A program made the position numbers and the translations under genes. The notes below the pieces were generated by a model. The model saw nothing but the letters and a program-made list of their open reading frames with translations, did not search any database and had not been told where the DNA came from. From Candidatus Hydrogenedentota bacterium (GTDB lineage: Bacteria; Hydrogenedentota; Hydrogenedentia; Hydrogenedentales; SLHB01), in NCBI GenBank assembly GCA_963745075.1, contig CAVUWV010000032.1, positions 103,485 to 167,484 on the forward strand: a DNA stretch of 64,000 nucleotides. The letters run 5' to 3'. Every line of letters begins with the position of its first letter. The stretch's first letter is position 1. Positions 2,859 through 9,561 of this stretch are shown piece after piece.

Positions 2859-3204
2859 TCCGGTCCTCCGTGTTATTTCCGTGGCTTGAGCGTCCTCACC
2901 CAAGTCTTCAAGACCTTGGCACCCGCTCCAACTGTATTCGAGTATTCCCTTGTACATGATCCCCTGGCGAAAGGGAAAACGCGTTCGTACACCGGGACAC
3001 AATCAACCACGCGTCATTGAATCAAACGGCAGAGCGCGATACCATACGGTTCGGTGCAATTCTCCGGAATCGTTGCGAGATTTTCGTGGAGCTGAGAGAC
3101 GCTAACGCGTAATTCGGCGATAGGAAGAATTCCCCCCAGACTTGGCGCGGCCTGCTCAGACGCTGGTGATTCGAGCCGTCGCATTGCGGCAAGGAGATGG
3201 AATC

Positions 3205-4738
3205 GTGGCAGTGACGGCTTCCCAATCGAGTGGCGCGGTGGCGGCGTATCTGGCCAAGGTGGAACCGGACCAGATCGACCCCGGTTTCCTGGGGTATCTG
3301 GCGAACCTGAGCGCGGTGGCGGCGGTGGCGCCGCTGGTCGCGAAGGAGATCGTGCAGGAACTGGCCGATCAACGGAGCTACCTCAAGCTCATCGCCAGCG
3401 AGAACTATTGCTCGCTCGCCACGCAGCTCGCCATGGGCAACCTGCTCACGGACAAGTACGCGGAAGGGTTCCCCCACTCGCGCTTTTACGAAGGCTGCGA
3501 CAACGTCGACGAGATCGAAGCCTACGCCTGCGAACAGGCCTGCAAACTCTTCGGCTGCGAGCACGCCTACGTGCAGCCCCACAGCGGCGCGGACGCGAAC
3601 ATGGTCGCCTTCTGGGGCATCCTGCAGGCGCGCGTCGCGGTGCCGGCGTTGGAAGAACTGGGCGTGAAGGATCCGGGCGCGCTGTCCCACGAGGATTGGG
3701 AGACGCTGCGCCAGAAGCTGGGCAACCAGCGCCTGCTGGGCTTGAACCTCGCCGCGGGCGGCCACCTCACCCACGGCTACCGCCACAACGTCTCGGGCAA
3801 AATGTTCGACGCCTACGCCTACGGCGTGAACGAGGATACCTTCCTCCTCGATTACGACGCCATCGAGAAACAGGCGGAGGACGTAAGCCGCTGATCCTGC
3901 TCGCGGGCTACAGCGCCTATCCGCGCGCCATCGATTTCAAGCGCATGCGCGCCATCGCCGACAAGGTCGGCGCGGTGCTCATGGTGGACATGGCCCACTT
4001 CGCGGGGCTCGTCGCGGGCGGCGTGTTCACCGGCGACCACAGTCCCTTCCCCCACGCCCAAGTAGTCACGTCGACGACCCACAAGACCCTGCGCGGACCG
4101 CGCGGCGGCATCATGCTTGTCGACGAAGGAATTCGGCCAGTACATGGACAAGGGCTGCCCCATGGTGCTCGGCGGACCGCTGCCGCACATCATGGCGGCC
4201 AAGGCCATCGCGTTGACCGAAGCCAACCGGCCCGAGTTCAAGGACTATACGAAGCAGATCGTCACGAATTGCCAGGCCCTCGCACAGGCCTGCGTCGACG
4301 AAGGCATGAGCGTCGTCTCCGGCGGCACGGACAACCATCTCATGCTCATCGACGTGACGACCTTCGGCCTCACCGGCCGCCAGGGCGCCAGCGCCTTGCG
4401 CGACTGCGGCATCACGCTCAACAAAAACGCCATCCCCTTCGACAAGAACTCGCCCGATGATCACCAGCGGCATGCGCCTCGGCACGCCCGCCGTGACGAC
4501 CCTCGGCATGGGCGTCGAGGAGATGAAGGAGATCGCCGCCATCATCAAGCTCGCCCTCAGCAATACGAAAGCGGGGGTCGTCGAGTCCGGCAAAAACGCG
4601 GGCAAACCCAGCAAGATCAATTACGTGCTGGACGAAAAGGCCCACCAGGAAGGCAAGGCCCGCGTGAAAGCGCTACTGGATAGATTCCCCGTCTACCCGG
4701 AACTGGACCTGGCGCTGTTGCAGGAGTATTTCGGGTAG
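3205..4738 (+). CDS. glyA: Serine hydroxymethyltransferase, three frameshifts (~3885, ~4117, ~4455)
   Basis: [47 protein letters not shown] and SGMRLGTPA occur in order across successive frames; AAGGAG RBS before GTG at 3205. Confidence 0.93.
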
Positions 4739-4763
4739 GGCTGCGGCGCAAACTCTTTTGGAA

Positions 4764-4845
4764 ATGGGACTCATGGGACCGATGCGACCTATGGGACGGA
4801 AATTCGCGTTGAATCTATACGTCTCGTAGGGCTTATTGGTTCCAT
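4764..4845. repeat. 9-bp-period array (4 x ATGGGACnn) with a degenerate inverted partner
   Basis: atgggactc/atgggaccg/atgcgacct/atgggacgg at 4764-4799; inverted degenerate units at 4819-4845. Confidence 0.75.
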
Positions 4846-4895
4846 TGGCATTTCGACCTTTGCCGCAACTTGCCGATTGCCCCGCAGATTCACTC

Positions 4896-4924
4896 TTGAC
4901 AGATTCTTGCATTGCCAGCACAAT
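4896..4924 (+). promoter_or_regulatory. Sigma70-like promoter
   Basis: TTGACA-N17-CACAAT upstream of the ATG at 4952. Confidence 0.55.
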
Positions 4925-4951
4925 AGCCTTGGGTCGGGGACAAGGAGAGTT

Positions 4952-5443
4952 ATGGCATCATACCTGCGCACCAAGCGCCGTAAGGCCGGGTTGCCGGAGT
5001 TTTTGCTTGTATTCGCGATGATCGCGGCGATCGTGCCTTTGACGGTCGTCTGGTACAGCCTTAACCAGCCCGACTGGCCCGCCGCGGGGGGGTGGGTCCT
5101 CTCCGGCAAAATCGTCAACACCCACTACAACGCCCCCGACTACAAGCAGAAGGTCACCGTTGACTACGAGTACCTCATCGGCGGCGCTAACTACAAAGGC
5201 GAATTCGTCGGCCTCTGGCCCGACGTCGGCAGTCCCAACGCGCTCCCTCCCAGCGAACTCGAAAAGATTACGCAGAAAGGCTACCCCCTCACCGTCTTCT
5301 ACGACCCCGACGACCCCACCCGCAGCCGCCTCCACACCCGCGGCCACGACGATCAGCTCAGTTTGATTCTGATCGCCGGTTGTTGCGTGGTCTTAGCGGG
5401 GGTGTATGCGTTTGTCGTATACCCCGCCTGGCGGAGCCGGTGA
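4952..5443 (+). CDS. DUF3592-like two-TM membrane protein
   Basis: N- and C-terminal TM helices, V.YEY.IGG..Y and TVFYDPDDPTRSRL motifs; GGAG RBS. Confidence 0.7.
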   Translation: MASYLRTKRRKAGLPEFLLVFAMIAAIVPLTVVWYSLNQPDWPAAGGWVLSGKIVNTHYNAPDYKQKVTVDYEYLIGGANYKGEFVGLWPDVGSPNALPPSELEKITQKGYPLTVFYDPDDPTRSRLHTRGHDDQLSLILIAGCCVVLAGVYAFVVYPAWRSR

Positions 5444-5465
5444 AGTGTGATGACGCACCCTCCCC

Positions 5466-5972
5466 ATCGTACTCGCTCTCGTACGCGTACTCGTACTCGA
5501 ATCCAAGGAGAGGTGCAGCATGCCAACCTTTGACCACGAGAAACTCGATGTGTACCGAGTCAGCCTCGAATTCGTCCGATTCGCACACCAAGTTTGCGAC
5601 AAACTACAAGCTAACCATCGTGCCGCAAAAGATCAGTTACTACGAGCAAGTATATCCATCCCACTGAACATTGCCGAAGGAAACGGAAAACGACCGACTG
5701 CGGACCGTAAACGATTCCTGGAGATTGCGCGCGGGTCGGCGACAGAGTGTGCCGCGATTCTCGATGTGCTGCGCGCCACGGGCGGGTGCACTGATGAGCA
5801 CGTTGACGAAGGAAAGGCAATGCTCGTGCGAATCGTGGCTATGCTGACGAAGATGATAAATATGGATCAGGTTCGGGAAGACGACACCGAGTATGGTTCG
5901 GACGCCGACCGTACCACCGAATGATCGCGAGCACGTTTCGAGTACGAGTACGCGTACGAGAGCGAGTACGAT
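5466..5972. repeat. Perfect 36-bp inverted repeat pair (5466-5501 / 5937-5972) of hexamer-like units enclosing one gene
   Basis: ATCGTACTCGCTCTCGTACGCGTACTCGTACTCGAA is the exact reverse complement of TTCGAGTACGAGTACGCGTACGAGAGCGAGTACGAT. Confidence 0.95.
5520..5924 (+). CDS. Four-helix-bundle protein (23S rRNA IVS-protein / TIGR02436-like)
   Basis: FDHEKLDVY...[17 protein letters not shown]...[13 protein letters not shown] signature; AAGGAG RBS. Confidence 0.9.
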
Positions 5973-5987
5973 TCGGAGATCCCCTCG

Positions 5988-7767
5988 CTACTTCTCCGTC
6001 TTCGGCGGGTACTTGATTTGGAGATGCAGCTCTTGGAGCTGCCTCTCCGTGACCTCGCTGGGCGCGCCCATCAACAAGTCCTGCGCTTTCTGCGTCAGCG
6101 GGAACGCAATGACCTCGCGGATGTTGGGCTCGTCGGCGAGTAGCATGACGATGCGGTCGAAACCCGGGCGCGATCCCTCCGTGAGGAGGGGCCCCGTAAT
6201 GGAAGGCGTTCCACAACGCCGGGAACTTTGACTTCACTGTGTCCTCGGGATACCCCGCGATTTCAAAGGCCTTCAGCATGATCTCGGGCCGGTGGTTACG
6301 GATGGCCCCCGACGACAACTCGATCCCGTTGCACACTACGTCATACTGGAACGCGAGCACGTCGAGGGGATCCCCCAGCAGCGCTTCCAATCCACCCTGC
6401 GGCATCGAGAAAGGGTTGTGCGAAAAATCGACCTTCTTCTCATCCTCGTTCCACTCGAACATGGGAAAGTCGACCACCCAACAGAAGGCGGCGAGGTTGT
6501 TGTCAACGATGCCAAGCGCATTCGCGAGGTAGACGCGAACCTTCCCGAGGAGAGCATTCGTCTCCGCGCGGTCGCCGGCGCCGAAGAAGAGGGCGTCGCC
6601 TTCGCGCGCGGCCGTGCGATCGATGAGGGCTTTCCGTTCGGCCTCGCTCAAGAACTTGACGATGGGACCCTTGAGTTCGCCGTCGCGCAGCGCGATCCAG
6701 GCGAGCCCTTTCGCGCCTTCGCCCTTGGCGAAGGATTCCGCGTCGTCGAAGAACTTGCGGGACTGCGTGGCCACGCCTTTCGCATTGATGACTTTCACCG
6801 CGCCCTTGCTCTTCACGGCGTTCGCGAAAACCTTGAACTCGCTGTCGCCGAAGATATCCGTCGCGTCGATCATTTCGAGCCCGAAACGGATATCGGGCTT
6901 GTCCGTGCCGTACTTCTCCATGGCGTCGCGATAGGGAATCCGCGGGAAGGGATTTGCCTGGATGGTCTTGTCCGACAACTCGCTGAACAGGCGCACGAGC
7001 AGCAACTCGATCTCGTGGAAGAGATCGTCCTGCGTGATATATGACATCTCGATATCGATTTGATAGAACTCGCCGGGGCTGCGGTCCGCGCGGCTGTCTT
7101 CATCGCGGAAACAGGGCGCGATCTGAAAGTACTTGTCGAAGCCCGAAATCATCAGCAACTGTTTGAACTGCTGCGGCGCTTGGGGCAGCGCATAAAACTC
7201 GCCGGGATACAACCGGCTCGGAACAAGGTAGTCCCGCGCGCCTTCCGGCGACGAACTGGTCAGGATTGGCGTGTGATACTCCGTGAACCCGCGCTCGGTG
7301 AGGTGTGCGCGGGTAAGTTGCGCGGTCTGCGAACGAAGCAGGATGTTGCGGTGCAACCGTTCCCGCCGTAGATCGAGGAATCGATGGGCAAGCCGCGTTT
7401 CTTCGGGATACTCCAATTCCTGGTTGATCGGAAACGGCAGTTGTTCCGCGATGGACTCGACATGGAAACTCGCGGCGACCACTTCAATTTCGCCCGTGTC
7501 GAGATTCGGGTTGATCGTCTCCGCCGTACGCGCGACAACCTTGCCGTCCACGCGAATGACGCTTTCGGACCGCACCTGCTCGGCTTCGGCAAAGAACGGT
7601 TGATCCGGATTCACGACCACCTGCGTGAGGCCGTAGTGATCGCGTAGATCGATAAAGATCACGCCGCCGTGGTCGCGTTTCCGGTGAACCCAGCCCGACA
7701 GGCGGACCTCGTTGTCCACGTCCGCGGGACGCAGTTCACCACAGGTATGCGTGCGAAAGGGATGCAT
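5988..7767 (-). CDS. aspS: Aspartate-tRNA ligase, probably non-discriminating Asp/Asn type; frameshift near 6162
   Basis: [44 protein letters not shown]. After a one-base correction it reads [21 protein letters not shown] with TAG at 5988-5990. Confidence 0.95.
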
Positions 7768-7817
7768 TGCCGTATCTCCAGAGCGGGTACTGATTTCGCG
7801 CCGTAGTTAAACGCCGG

Positions 7818-7846
7818 ATCGTAGCGGTTGACGGGGCGATTGTCAA
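7818..7846 (-). promoter_or_regulatory. Sigma70-like promoter of aspS
   Basis: Minus strand TTGACA-N17-TACGAT. Confidence 0.6.
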
Positions 7847-7934
7847 ATTGTTGGAGCAAAGCGCAGCCCTGCGCTCGTGGAATATGGGCTGGCACTACCG
7901 CCCGATCCAGGGCGGCACGCGCGGATATGGAGCA

Positions 7935-7970
7935 CCGGCCGATCGGAGGGATAGGTCCGATCGGTCCGAT
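7935..7970 (-). repeat. 9-bp-period array (4 units, ATCGGACCn)
   Basis: ccggccgat/cggagggat/aggtccgat/cggtccgat; resembles the array at 4764. Confidence 0.65.
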
Positions 7971-8079
7971 CCAACCAACAAGTTGCCTCCGGCGGATTGC
8001 CGGATCTGCCGCGCGGTGCTATGATTGCACCGGGGCGTCTCGGGCCAAAACCGCATTGGTCTAAAGGGGGAATTCTGCC

Positions 8080-9561
8080 ATGAGTACTCACGCCCACACC
8101 CATTGTTCCGGCTGTCTGATGTCCCGCCGCTGTTTTCTGGGCGCCATGTCCGTCGCGGCGGCAGCCGGCCCGGCTGTTTCCACTGTCGCTGCGGCGCCGG
8201 AGCCCGGTAAACTCAGCGAACACGTCGACCTCTCTGAGTTCCGGCCCAAACCGGAGGTCGTGGTTTACGGAGCGGTCGTGCGCCAGGCGCCGCCCTACTG
8301 GCTGGGTTGGCCCGGTACGGCGTACGACGTGGAGGGGCGCCGCAAGGAGTACACCCAAGGCGCGGCGGACGCCGCGCAGCGGCTGGGGATCACCTTGTCC
8401 CAAGTGGAATCGCCACTCGAATCGGACGAGGCGGTGGACGGTTTCGTGCGTATGGTTTCCGCCGATGAGCCCGACGCGGTCCTCCTCGTCCTGCAACACT
8501 TCGCGGTATGGGGGCAGGTCGAGAAGATCGCGAAGGCCGGCGTTCCCACGATCGTCTTCGCCCCGATCGGGATGGCCTTCACCGGCCACGTCCTCGAGAT
8601 TTCGCGCCAGCCCGGTGTGCATGTCATTTCATCCCTCGAGATGGGAGCCGTGGAACAAGCGTTGCGCATGGTACGCGCCCGCAAACAATTGGCCACGTCC
8701 CGGCTGCTGGTCCTGGCCGGCACCGAGCGCAAAGACGAAGCCATCGAAGTCGTTACCCATGTGCTGCGTATCCCGCTCGATTCTCTGCACGAGACTTTCG
8801 AAAGGATGCCCGTCAACGACGAGGTCCACGAGGTCGCCAAGATCATGCGACGAGGCGCCCAGGATATCGTCGAGCCCACCCCGGACGATCTGCTGAACTC
8901 GGCCCGTACCTTTGTCACGGCGAAGCGCCTGTTGAAGGACGAGGAGTGCAACGGGGTAACCTCGGACTGTCTCGGCATGGTGTCGTCCCGCGTTGTACCG
9001 ACGCCGCCATGCATGGCGGCGACCTTGTTCCAGGACGCGGGCGTCACGTACGGATGCGAGGCGGACGTGTTCGGCGCGCTGTCGCTGATGCTGACGAGTT
9101 ATCTCCTCGACCGGCCCGGATTCATGAACGACCCGGTCCCGGAAACCTATAAGAACGTGCTTATCGCCGCTCACTGCACCTCGGGCACGCGGCTCAACGG
9201 CTTCCGGGAAGCCCCGGAACCGTATATCCTGCGGTCCCATTCGGAGTCGAACCTCGGGGTCGCGACGCAGGTGCTGTGGCGTGAAGGGCAAAAAGTGACG
9301 CTGGTGCGCTTTACCAACGGCAAGGAGATGATCGTCGACACGGGTACCGTGGTGAGCAACGTCAGCACACCGCCTGCCGGCGGGTGCCGGACGAGCTTCG
9401 AAATTGCCATGGACCGGATTGAAGACGTGCGCGACGTGAAGGGGTTCCATCAGGTCGTGTCTTACGGTGATCACCGCCGCGACGTGGAGGCCTTCTGCCA
9501 GATGTACGGCATCAAGGTGGTCCGTTCCCCGGCACAGCCGCCGGAACCCGAGACGGCGTAA
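8080..9561 (+). CDS. Tat-exported L-fucose/L-arabinose-isomerase-like hypothetical protein
   Basis: SRRCFL twin-arginine signal; DCL, PC, GCEAD, AHCT, CRT and GFHQV motifs resembling the fucose-isomerase fold. Confidence 0.65.
   Translation: MSTHAHTHCSGCLMSRRCFLGAMSVAAAAGPAVSTVAAAPEPGKLSEHVDLSEFRPKPEVVVYGAVVRQAPPYWLGWPGTAYDVEGRRKEYTQGAADAAQRLGITLSQVESPLESDEAVDGFVRMVSADEPDAVLLVLQHFAVWGQVEKIAKAGVPTIVFAPIGMAFTGHVLEISRQPGVHVISSLEMGAVEQALRMVRARKQLATSRLLVLAGTERKDEAIEVVTHVLRIPLDSLHETFERMPVNDEVHEVAKIMRRGAQDIVEPTPDDLLNSARTFVTAKRLLKDEECNGVTSDCLGMVSSRVVPTPPCMAATLFQDAGVTYGCEADVFGALSLMLTSYLLDRPGFMNDPVPETYKNVLIAAHCTSGTRLNGFREAPEPYILRSHSESNLGVATQVLWREGQKVTLVRFTNGKEMIVDTGTVVSNVSTPPAGGCRTSFEIAMDRIEDVRDVKGFHQVVSYGDHRRDVEAFCQMYGIKVVRSPAQPPEPETA

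What the first reader, a model, noticed from the sequence alone, without database searches (positions are those of the whole stretch)
5460..5978. Four-helix-bundle gene enclosed by a perfect 36-bp hexamer-built inverted repeat: candidate mobile or RNA-processed cassette
Seen: a 134-aa four-helix-bundle ORF and its RBS fill the loop of an exact 36-bp inverted repeat (5466-5501 / 5937-5972) made of GAGTAC-like hexamers. The cassette fills almost all of the gap between a membrane-protein gene and the aspS stop, with no transposase or obvious target duplication. Known: this protein family was first found inside excised 23S rRNA intervening sequences, shares a fold with the DGR accessory protein Avd, and has no assigned function. 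Inference: the transcript would form a long dsRNA stem with the ORF looped out, like an IVS outside rRNA. Exact arm identity in low-complexity sequence suggests selection or recent mobility, so this may be an uncharacterised selfish or regulatory element.
Basis: partly seen in the sequence, partly recalled or inferred. Interest (0 to 1): 0.82.

Follow-up and report, generated by a model that had tools for sequence, protein, structure and literature searches.

The report
Repeat-armed four-helix gene seeding genome hairpins
A small conserved gene of unknown function sits as an insert between two mirror-image runs of a six-base repeat, and gene-less hairpins of that same repeat type occur across this genome but not in its closest relatives, which suggests the gene likely drives the spread of its own repeat family.

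Summary
A perfect 36-bp inverted repeat encloses an intact PF05635/TIGR02436 gene whose predicted fold matches Xcc0516 and Avd.

The cassette is an insertion. Six family relatives have DUF3592 and aspS −26 to 44 bp apart, against 544 bp here. Of 155 homologues, 125 have inverted arms (0 of 323 control windows). The protein is under purifying selection (median dN/dS 0.06).

The arm type of the resident gene predicts the genome's dispersed repeat type. This genome has a TCGT-armed gene (here) and a TCGG/TCGA-armed paralogue, and both repeat families. Five congeners, where the TCGT-armed gene was not found, have no TCGT arrays. In 44 other genomes, 34 agree, 6 disagree and 4 are uninformative. 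Four of four gene-less hairpins tested are lineage-specific insertions.

Best reading: a REP/RAYT-like system whose resident gene is a probably non-catalytic, Avd-like nucleic-acid-binding ring. The moving enzyme is unknown. RNA excision is untested; arm mismatches show no G·U bias. I found no description in nine literature searches. This scan has reported the cassette on other DNA many times (55 notes).

The parts
5466..5501 (+). Left arm: TCG-phased hexamer array (TCGTAC type), inner end TCGAA, 18 nt before the start codon
5505..5513 (+). Shine-Dalgarno-like AAGGAGAGG just inside the loop
   Evidence: sequence
5520..5924 (+). Four-helix-bundle gene (TIGR02436 / PF05635), 134 aa, intact; GC3 0.56 vs 0.78-0.82 in the two neighbours; predicted four long helices plus a disordered acidic tail
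5937..5972 (+). Right arm: exact reverse complement of the left arm, starting 12 nt after the stop codon
5444..5987 (.). Whole 544-bp gap that holds the insertion; -26 to 44 bp in six relatives; exact element ends not resolved, no target duplication seen
4952..5443 (+). Host gene, DUF3592 membrane protein (left flank, not part of the cassette)
5988..7767 (-). Host gene aspS (right flank, convergent); carries a frameshift near 6160-6180 in this assembly

Best explanation
This is an inserted cassette, a four-helix-bundle gene between two inward-facing hexamer arrays, and it is likely the resident copy of a REP/REPIN-like repeat system in which the protein is predicted to form an Avd-like ring that would bind its own arm type and help an unknown enzyme copy arm-bounded hairpins into other intergenic gaps. 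Shown: the insertion into an otherwise tight junction, a foreign codon signature, purifying selection on the protein, matched arms across the clade, arm type tracking the protein tree, arm type predicting the genome-wide repeat type, and lineage-specific insertion of gene-less hairpins. Inferred: pentamer formation (from solved homologues), binding to the phased TCG/CGA triplets on single-stranded DNA or RNA, and recruitment of a host or trans-acting enzyme (a reverse transcriptase, as for Avd, or a repair/recombination enzyme). The enzyme and the intermediate are not identified.
For: Empty sites: DUF3592 and aspS are adjacent in 6 of the 28 relatives' DUF3592 loci, with gaps of 2, 44, 23, 18, -4 and -26 bp and no four-helix hit. 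Conversely, this genome is empty at accB-accC and nuoI-nuoJ, where other genera carry the cassette. Arms: 125 of 155 homologues score 15 or more vs 0 of 323 shifted windows. Left and right arm class agree in 112 of 115; in 41 disjoint pairs of close proteins with different left arms, own pairing wins 33 and cross pairing 6; arm class needs 6 changes on the tree vs 36.6 shuffled (quick tree, few supported forks). Selection: median dN/dS 0.058 over 318 non-independent pairs. Genome-wide match (TCGT vs TCGV pattern matches, overlapping counts): this genome, both genes, 83/48; congeners with only the G-type gene 0/315 and 0/88; congeners with no gene found 0/0, 0/0 and 0/25. In other genera of the phylum, 8 of 9 T-gene genomes are T-dominant (one has no arrays) and 3 of 3 G-gene genomes are G-dominant. 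In 44 genomes reached through other loci, mostly of other phyla, T-armed genes gave 18 T-dominant, 5 G-dominant, 3 none; G-armed genes gave 16 G-dominant, 1 T-dominant, 1 tie (Fisher p = 5e-6, kin not independent). Two of five discordant genomes checked hold a second gene of the other type. Four of four gene-less T-type hairpins tested are insertions relative to three congeners. Apart from chance overlaps with flanking genes, the only intact genes I saw enclosed by matched arm pairs in this genome are the two four-helix genes. Fold: 2GSC Z 20.0 (rmsd 1.4, 116 aligned), 2RLD Z 17.9 (rmsd 2.1, 110), Avd 4DWL Z 15.0 (rmsd 1.7, 108). In the DGR complex all five Avd protomers contact one RNA stem-loop (10.1101/2023.10.23.563531, section 8 read). 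Arm mismatches fall at the variable positions (16-32%) far more than at TCG (1-5%) (phase was defined from the left arm, so this is partly circular).
Against: No binding, movement or intermediate was observed. No consistent transposase, integrase or RT neighbour was found: 612 of 679 neighbour clusters are singletons, and an intron-type RT lies beside only 5 of 176 loci. Eight of 16 array-rich genomes in the phylum had no full clade gene detected, one of them only a fragment at a contig end (72-96% complete MAGs). Three of five discordant genomes checked were not explained, and a sixth was not checked. One gene-bearing genome has no dispersed arrays by the strict patterns (G013). The type match could also arise if arms spread without the protein after arriving with it. 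The core is not net basic by count (17 K+R, 16 D+E). In 96 of 134 homologues the right arm starts inside the ORF, so part of its conservation may act at protein level.
Confidence: 0.55

Rival explanations
1. IVS-like RNA element: the arms pair in the transcript and RNase III cuts the stem, freeing or silencing the gene and splitting host operon mRNAs. The arms are kept for this RNA role, and spread is by ordinary recombination.
For: Same layout as the Coxiella 23S IVS: a 28-bp terminal stem, heptamer repeats before the ORF, and RNase III cleavage in vitro (PMC4990558, passages read). The RNA fold here has z = -5.17. The nearest upstream gene is co-oriented in 103 of 137 loci with a crude call. 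A perfect 36-bp duplex is a plausible RNase III substrate (own knowledge).
Against: Sense-strand G-U and A-C mismatches are equal (137 vs 142, p = 0.81; 33 vs 39 loci). Many mismatches are transversions. None of 20 loci scanned is in rRNA. It does not explain new insertions at unrelated sites or the gene-to-repeat type match. It can be true alongside the best explanation as a side effect.
Confidence: 0.17
2. The arms are the mobile unit, moved by an unrelated enzyme in trans. The four-helix gene is a useful passenger captured between arms, and repeats seed from an incoming cassette without any action of the protein.
For: No catalytic motif is known for the family (own knowledge). Array-rich genomes without a detected gene exist. 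This genome has 16 Y1-transposase matches and many other REPIN-like families. Gene-less hairpins mostly have unrelated spacers.
Against: 15 of 16 Y1 matches have no TCG array within 900 bp, and the one that does has its own REP arms. Matched arm pairs enclose only four-helix genes in this genome. Arm class follows the protein tree across phyla.
Confidence: 0.2
3. By-product: polymerase slippage makes hexamer arrays, template switching makes them inverted and identical, and the gene is an ordinary horizontally moved gene.
For: Array lengths vary widely. Slippage has been proposed for excess heptamer repeats (PMC4692102, passages read).
Against: 0 of 323 control windows show such arms. Same-composition control periodic patterns give 0-4 hits vs 77, apart from a phase-shifted form of the same arrays (29). 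TCGT arrays are absent from five congeners. Hairpins of 120-230 bp appear as whole insertions. Conserved left-right asymmetries in Pirellulales arms argue against simple homogenisation.
Confidence: 0.05

Closest known systems
ORF-bearing intervening sequences (IVS) of 23S rRNA, e.g. Coxiella burnetii helix 45 with S23p (PMC4990558, passages read)
   Same: PF05635 gene in the loop of a terminal inverted repeat; short tandem repeats just before the start codon; sporadic distribution.
   Different: Here it lies between protein-coding genes, not in rRNA. The arms are hexamers, the ribosome-binding site is inside the loop, the ORF family is under purifying selection, and a genome-wide family of gene-less hairpins matches the arms. 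RNase III excision is untested.
REPIN-RAYT systems (PMC3116915, abstract and outline read; 10.1101/2022.05.22.493013, passages read)
   Same: One or few resident genes, each tied to its own family of dispersed intergenic inverted doublets with a spacer; the repeat type follows the gene type.
   Different: The resident protein is an all-helical bundle, not a Y1/HUH transposase. The arms are phased tandem hexamers, not short palindromes. The gene sits inside one doublet. Close protein relatives are found in different phyla, whereas REPIN-RAYT is described as mostly vertically inherited.
Avd of diversity-generating retroelements (4DWL, 8UB7; 10.1101/2023.10.23.563531, passages and section 8 read)
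   Same: Same fold (Z 15.0-15.4, rmsd 1.6-1.7, 107-108 aligned). Avd is a pentamer that binds a stem-loop of its element's RNA.
   Different: 10-12% identity. No RT is consistently adjacent to clade members; no template/variable repeat pair was looked for.
GGGAATC heptamer repeats of Xanthomonas and Nostoc (PMC4692102, passages read)
   Same: Dispersed intergenic short tandem arrays, often as inverted pairs, close to stop codons.
   Different: Interpreted there as G-quadruplex formers; the term 'four helix' does not occur in the main text. The arrays here are not G-rich.

Membership tests
PF05635 / TIGR02436 four-helix-bundle proteins | Profile score above the curated cut-off | tested here: met
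   85.1 vs 33.8 bits; 81.5 vs 24 bits
PF05635 / TIGR02436 four-helix-bundle proteins | Four-helix fold of Xcc0516 / BT_0352 | tested here: met
   Predicted model, mean pLDDT 88; 2GSC Z 20.0, rmsd 1.4, 116 aligned
PF05635 / TIGR02436 four-helix-bundle proteins | Homopentamer | not tested
   Inferred from 2GSC (5 chains) and Avd; no complex prediction was run
23S rRNA intervening sequence (IVS) | Located inside an rRNA gene | tested here: not met
   Between DUF3592 and aspS; no rRNA match in 3500-8500; none in 20 homologous loci
23S rRNA intervening sequence (IVS) | Terminal inverted repeat forming a long stem around the ORF | tested here: met
23S rRNA intervening sequence (IVS) | Excised from RNA by RNase III without religation | not testable with these tools
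   Needs RNA reads or an in vitro assay
REPIN-RAYT | Resident gene is a Y1 (HUH) tyrosine transposase | tested here: not met
   The only Pfam match is PF05635, for all 56 aligned members apart from two single weak hits; all-helical model
REPIN-RAYT | Dispersed intergenic inverted doublets of the cognate repeat | tested here: met
   77 strict arrays, 10 of them inside long ORFs against 74% genome cover; 10 close left-right pairs, all type-matched
REPIN-RAYT | Repeat family tied to the resident gene | tested here: met
   exceptions listed in the Against line
REPIN-RAYT | Protein cleaves or moves the repeat | not testable with these tools
   Biochemistry needed
Insertion sequence / MITE | Own or cognate transposase and target-site duplication | tested here: inconclusive
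   No transposase in the cassette and none consistently nearby. No duplication seen at five sites, but the relatives are about 80% identical or less
Diversity-generating retroelement | RT gene next to the Avd-like gene | tested here: not met
   No RT among the neighbours here. An intron-type RT lies beside 5 of 176 homologous loci

The most novel reading that the evidence does not exclude
PF05635 proteins are the specificity factors of an undescribed class of mobile repeat. A non-catalytic pentameric ring reads phased triplets in its own hexamer or heptamer arms and recruits a trans-acting enzyme to copy arm-bounded hairpins around the genome. This would make 23S rRNA IVSs one landing site of the element and explain the excess of 6-7-base intergenic repeats in many bacteria.
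Probability: 0.4. Interest if true: 0.88.

Novelty: new variant of a known kind. Interest (0 to 1): 0.72.

Why it matters
It gives a large orphan protein family a candidate job and a candidate ligand, and it ties it to intergenic short-repeat families that the papers I read leave unexplained. This genome is a natural experiment. It has two paralogues with different arms and two matching repeat families, while congeners with one paralogue have one family. A simple cross-binding assay with the two proteins and the two arm types tests the idea directly. It also bears on where rRNA intervening sequences and the DGR factor Avd came from.

Tried and rejected
(1) Sequencing runs: no RNA holder listed. 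Three soil DNA runs were laid; no piece spans the cassette, and one joint across it has only 23 letters on its side and other letters between, so it is uninformative.
(2) G-U bias test for an RNA-level stem: null. Transcription-linked C-to-T mutation would have confounded a positive result anyway.
(3) Inversion-breakpoint idea: in congeners G003 and G005, DUF3592 and aspS have other neighbours whose orthologues lie head-to-head in this genome. I first read this as a cassette-linked rearrangement. Six family relatives share this genome's gene order without the cassette, so this order is probably ancestral and the idea was dropped.
(4) Linked mobiliser: none consistent, from crude ORF calls clustered by BLAST without family scans. 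Y1 transposases have other REPs. A strict RT motif scan of this genome printed no hit; it is crude and no evidence of absence.
(5) No tblastn match in the phage or plasmid collections at E 1e-5.
(6) 'Five units for five subunits': left-arm spans range from 2 to 20 units with no sharp mode; not supported.
(7) Gene-less spacers as deletion derivatives of the gene: a clade HMM found only the two full genes strongly.
(8) The reversed-pattern control also matches TCGTGC-type and non-CG arrays, so it is not a clean null for those genomes.
(9) The weak PF05635 hits on C18 and C20 have no arms.
(10) Literature searches found no paper linking this family to flanking or dispersed repeats outside rRNA. 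The library lacks most subscription papers, and I read no supplements.
(11) Complex prediction was not used, since a pass would follow from likeness to solved pentamers.

Full report
OBSERVATION. The arms at 5466-5501 and 5937-5972 are exact reverse complements, extendable to 42 nt at 95%. They enclose a ribosome-binding site and a 134-aa ORF that passes the curated cut-offs of TIGR02436 and PF05635. A model from a 56-row alignment (pLDDT 88, residues 117-134 disordered) matches Xcc0516 (2GSC, Z 20.0, rmsd 1.4, 116 aligned), BT_0352 (2RLD, Z 17.9) and Avd (Z 15.0-15.4). The flanks are DUF3592 and a convergent aspS. The host appears to be in Hydrogenedentota: a same-family locus (L216) reads the same around the gene as a record so titled (L075). 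Perfection of the arms is unusual within the clade (6 of 134) but not in this genome (58 perfect 30-nt inverted repeats).

IT IS AN INSERTION. Of the 28 relatives with a DUF3592 match among 53 family genomes searched, six have aspS convergent next to it, with gaps of -26 to 44 bp and no four-helix hit, against 544 bp here. The four congeners with a DUF3592 match have other gene orders. The ORF has GC3 0.56 against 0.78-0.82 in its neighbours. The reverse also holds: other genera carry the cassette between accB and accC or nuoI and nuoJ, where this genome's genes are contiguous. No target duplication was seen, but the relatives are too distant to fix the ends.

IT IS A FAMILY DESIGN. I fetched 185 clade loci; 176 were unique and 155 had full flanks. 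125 of 155 have an inverted repeat scoring 15 or more, against 0 of 323 shifted windows. Only 21 of 155 match their own downstream arm better than every other locus's, because repeat types are shared between loci. The units are TCGnnn. Among 115 loci with at least two units a side, left and right class agree in 112. In 41 disjoint pairs of similar proteins with different left arms, own pairing wins 33 and cross pairing 6, mostly among the more distant pairs; against the nearest protein neighbour it is 53 to 34. Arm class needs 6 changes on the protein tree against 36.6 shuffled (quick tree, 8 starred forks). This genome's paralogue on C24 has its own 35/36 arms of another type and groups with Desulfuromonadales proteins. 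More distant PF05635 genes in the phylum often carry 7- to 8-base arms instead. Median dN/dS is 0.058 over 318 non-independent pairs, and 8 of 185 loci have an early stop. In 96 of 134 loci the right arm starts inside the ORF and encodes an acidic tail; here it starts after the stop.

THE GENE TYPE PREDICTS THE GENOME'S REPEATS. This genome has 77 strict (TCGnnn)4TCG arrays, 53 T-type, 21 G-type and 3 unclassed. Ten lie inside long ORFs against 74% genome cover. Ten close left-right pairs are all type-matched. At least seven gene-less hairpins share a spacer of about 75 nt at 75-89% identity. Four gene-less T-type hairpins, of 12 regions fetched, were compared with three congeners, and all four are insertions: 274 vs 42-43, 209 vs 94-137, 212 vs 60-62 and 180 vs 4-8 bp. 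In 33 selected genomes of the phylum (gene-bearing, array-rich, and two congeners without the gene), pattern matches T/G were 83/48 here, 0/315 and 0/88 in the congeners with only the G-type gene, and 0/25, 0/0 and 0/0 in the congeners with no gene found (72-93% complete). Eight of nine T-gene genomes of other genera are T-dominant and three of three G-gene genomes are G-dominant. Four genomes with non-CG arms, three with armless distant genes and one with unclear arms were not scored. As an outside test I took 44 genomes from the 80 genome loci: 34 agree, 6 disagree and 4 are uninformative (p = 5e-6, overstated by kinship). Two of five discordant genomes checked hold a second gene of the other type; three are unexplained. 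Across 135 phylum genomes, 8 of 16 array-rich ones have the gene against 15 of 119 others. The eight array-rich genomes without a full gene gave only distant hits, one fragment at a contig end, or nothing.

MECHANISM. The pattern is that of REPIN-RAYT: a resident gene with a cognate population of intergenic inverted doublets (PMC3116915 abstract). But the resident protein is not a transposase, the Y1 genes here have their own REPs, and no mover is consistently linked. Avd, the one structural relative here with a known function, is a pentamer whose five subunits hold one RNA stem-loop for a reverse transcriptase. I therefore infer that the protein is a ring that recognises its arm type and recruits an enzyme in trans (0.55). 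Arm mismatches spare the TCG triplet (1-5%) more than the variable positions (16-32%) (partly circular), as expected if a phased motif is read. They show no G-U bias, so nothing here singles out RNA. The rivals are a passenger gene between independently mobile arms (0.2), an IVS-like RNase III substrate (0.17, compatible as a side effect) and a slippage by-product (0.05).

COMPARISON AND NOVELTY. The layout is that of the Coxiella 23S IVS, which also has heptamer repeats and a terminal stem (PMC4990558 passages). Membership fails on location. It works like REPIN-RAYT but fails on the enzyme. Nine searches of the open library found no description of the link to dispersed repeats; subscription papers and supplements were not seen. 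I class it as a new variant of a known kind, with a 0.4 chance that it is the protein-specified mobile repeat class described in the section on the most novel reading. This scan has reported the same cassette on other DNA many times (55 notes in one look-up), including the tie to gene-less hairpins. Those notes are unchecked, and two are marked as partly fallen. The tests above are my own. What this locus adds is a two-paralogue, two-repeat genome with congeners lacking one type, plus empty sites for both the cassette and its gene-less forms.

Noticed in passing
window 6160-6180 (aspS) and 3142-4738 (glyA): aspS has a frameshift near its 3' end and glyA is split over several frames. These are likely indel errors of the assembly rather than pseudogenes; not tested.
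   Followed up: partly
G000:C8:222000-222250 vs L034, L035, L038-L040: The genes that follow DUF3592 and aspS in congeners G003-G005 lie head-to-head in this genome. This is the reciprocal junction of a rearrangement with both breakpoints in short intergenic gaps; no hexamer arrays were seen there.
   Followed up: yes
L051, L101, L131, L149 (just downstream of the right arm): Group II intron-type RT elements sit directly after the right arm in 4 of 176 homologous loci (a fifth RT, L159, lies upstream), as if the arms were used as hairpin targets.
   Followed up: partly
G000:C24:309993-310632 (L231) and L222: The G-type paralogue has an extra right-type arm about 140-200 bp upstream, giving a direct repeat around leader plus gene. 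In G005 the repeat extends about 60 bp, which may hint at a circular intermediate.
   Followed up: no
G000, e.g. C10:238526, C13:59890, C19:4500, C28:39166, C14:342268: Several G-type hairpins are nested in a second repeated element with conserved flanks ending in a GCTCAGAATGAC-like motif.
   Followed up: no
G000 genome-wide: At least five other REPIN-like families give most of the 58 perfect 30-nt inverted repeats; a CCCCCTTGATCCCCCTTCAAAGGGGG type is the commonest.
   Followed up: no
Pirellulales loci, e.g. L055, L066, L074, L107: The arms keep a conserved asymmetric internal loop that differs between left and right, and several genomes hold tandem or multiple copies (8 matches in G166).
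   Followed up: partly
L218, L219, L085, L224, L172: A subgroup of the same protein clade has non-CG hexamer arms (TCTTGC type), so the CG is not universal.
   Followed up: partly
G000:C18:249539 and C20:74523: Two distant PF05635-like genes with longer frames have no arms.
   Followed up: partly
G000:C27:244040-244571: A long nested perfect inverted repeat in coding-like sequence; possibly an assembly fold-back or a real inverted duplication.
   Followed up: no
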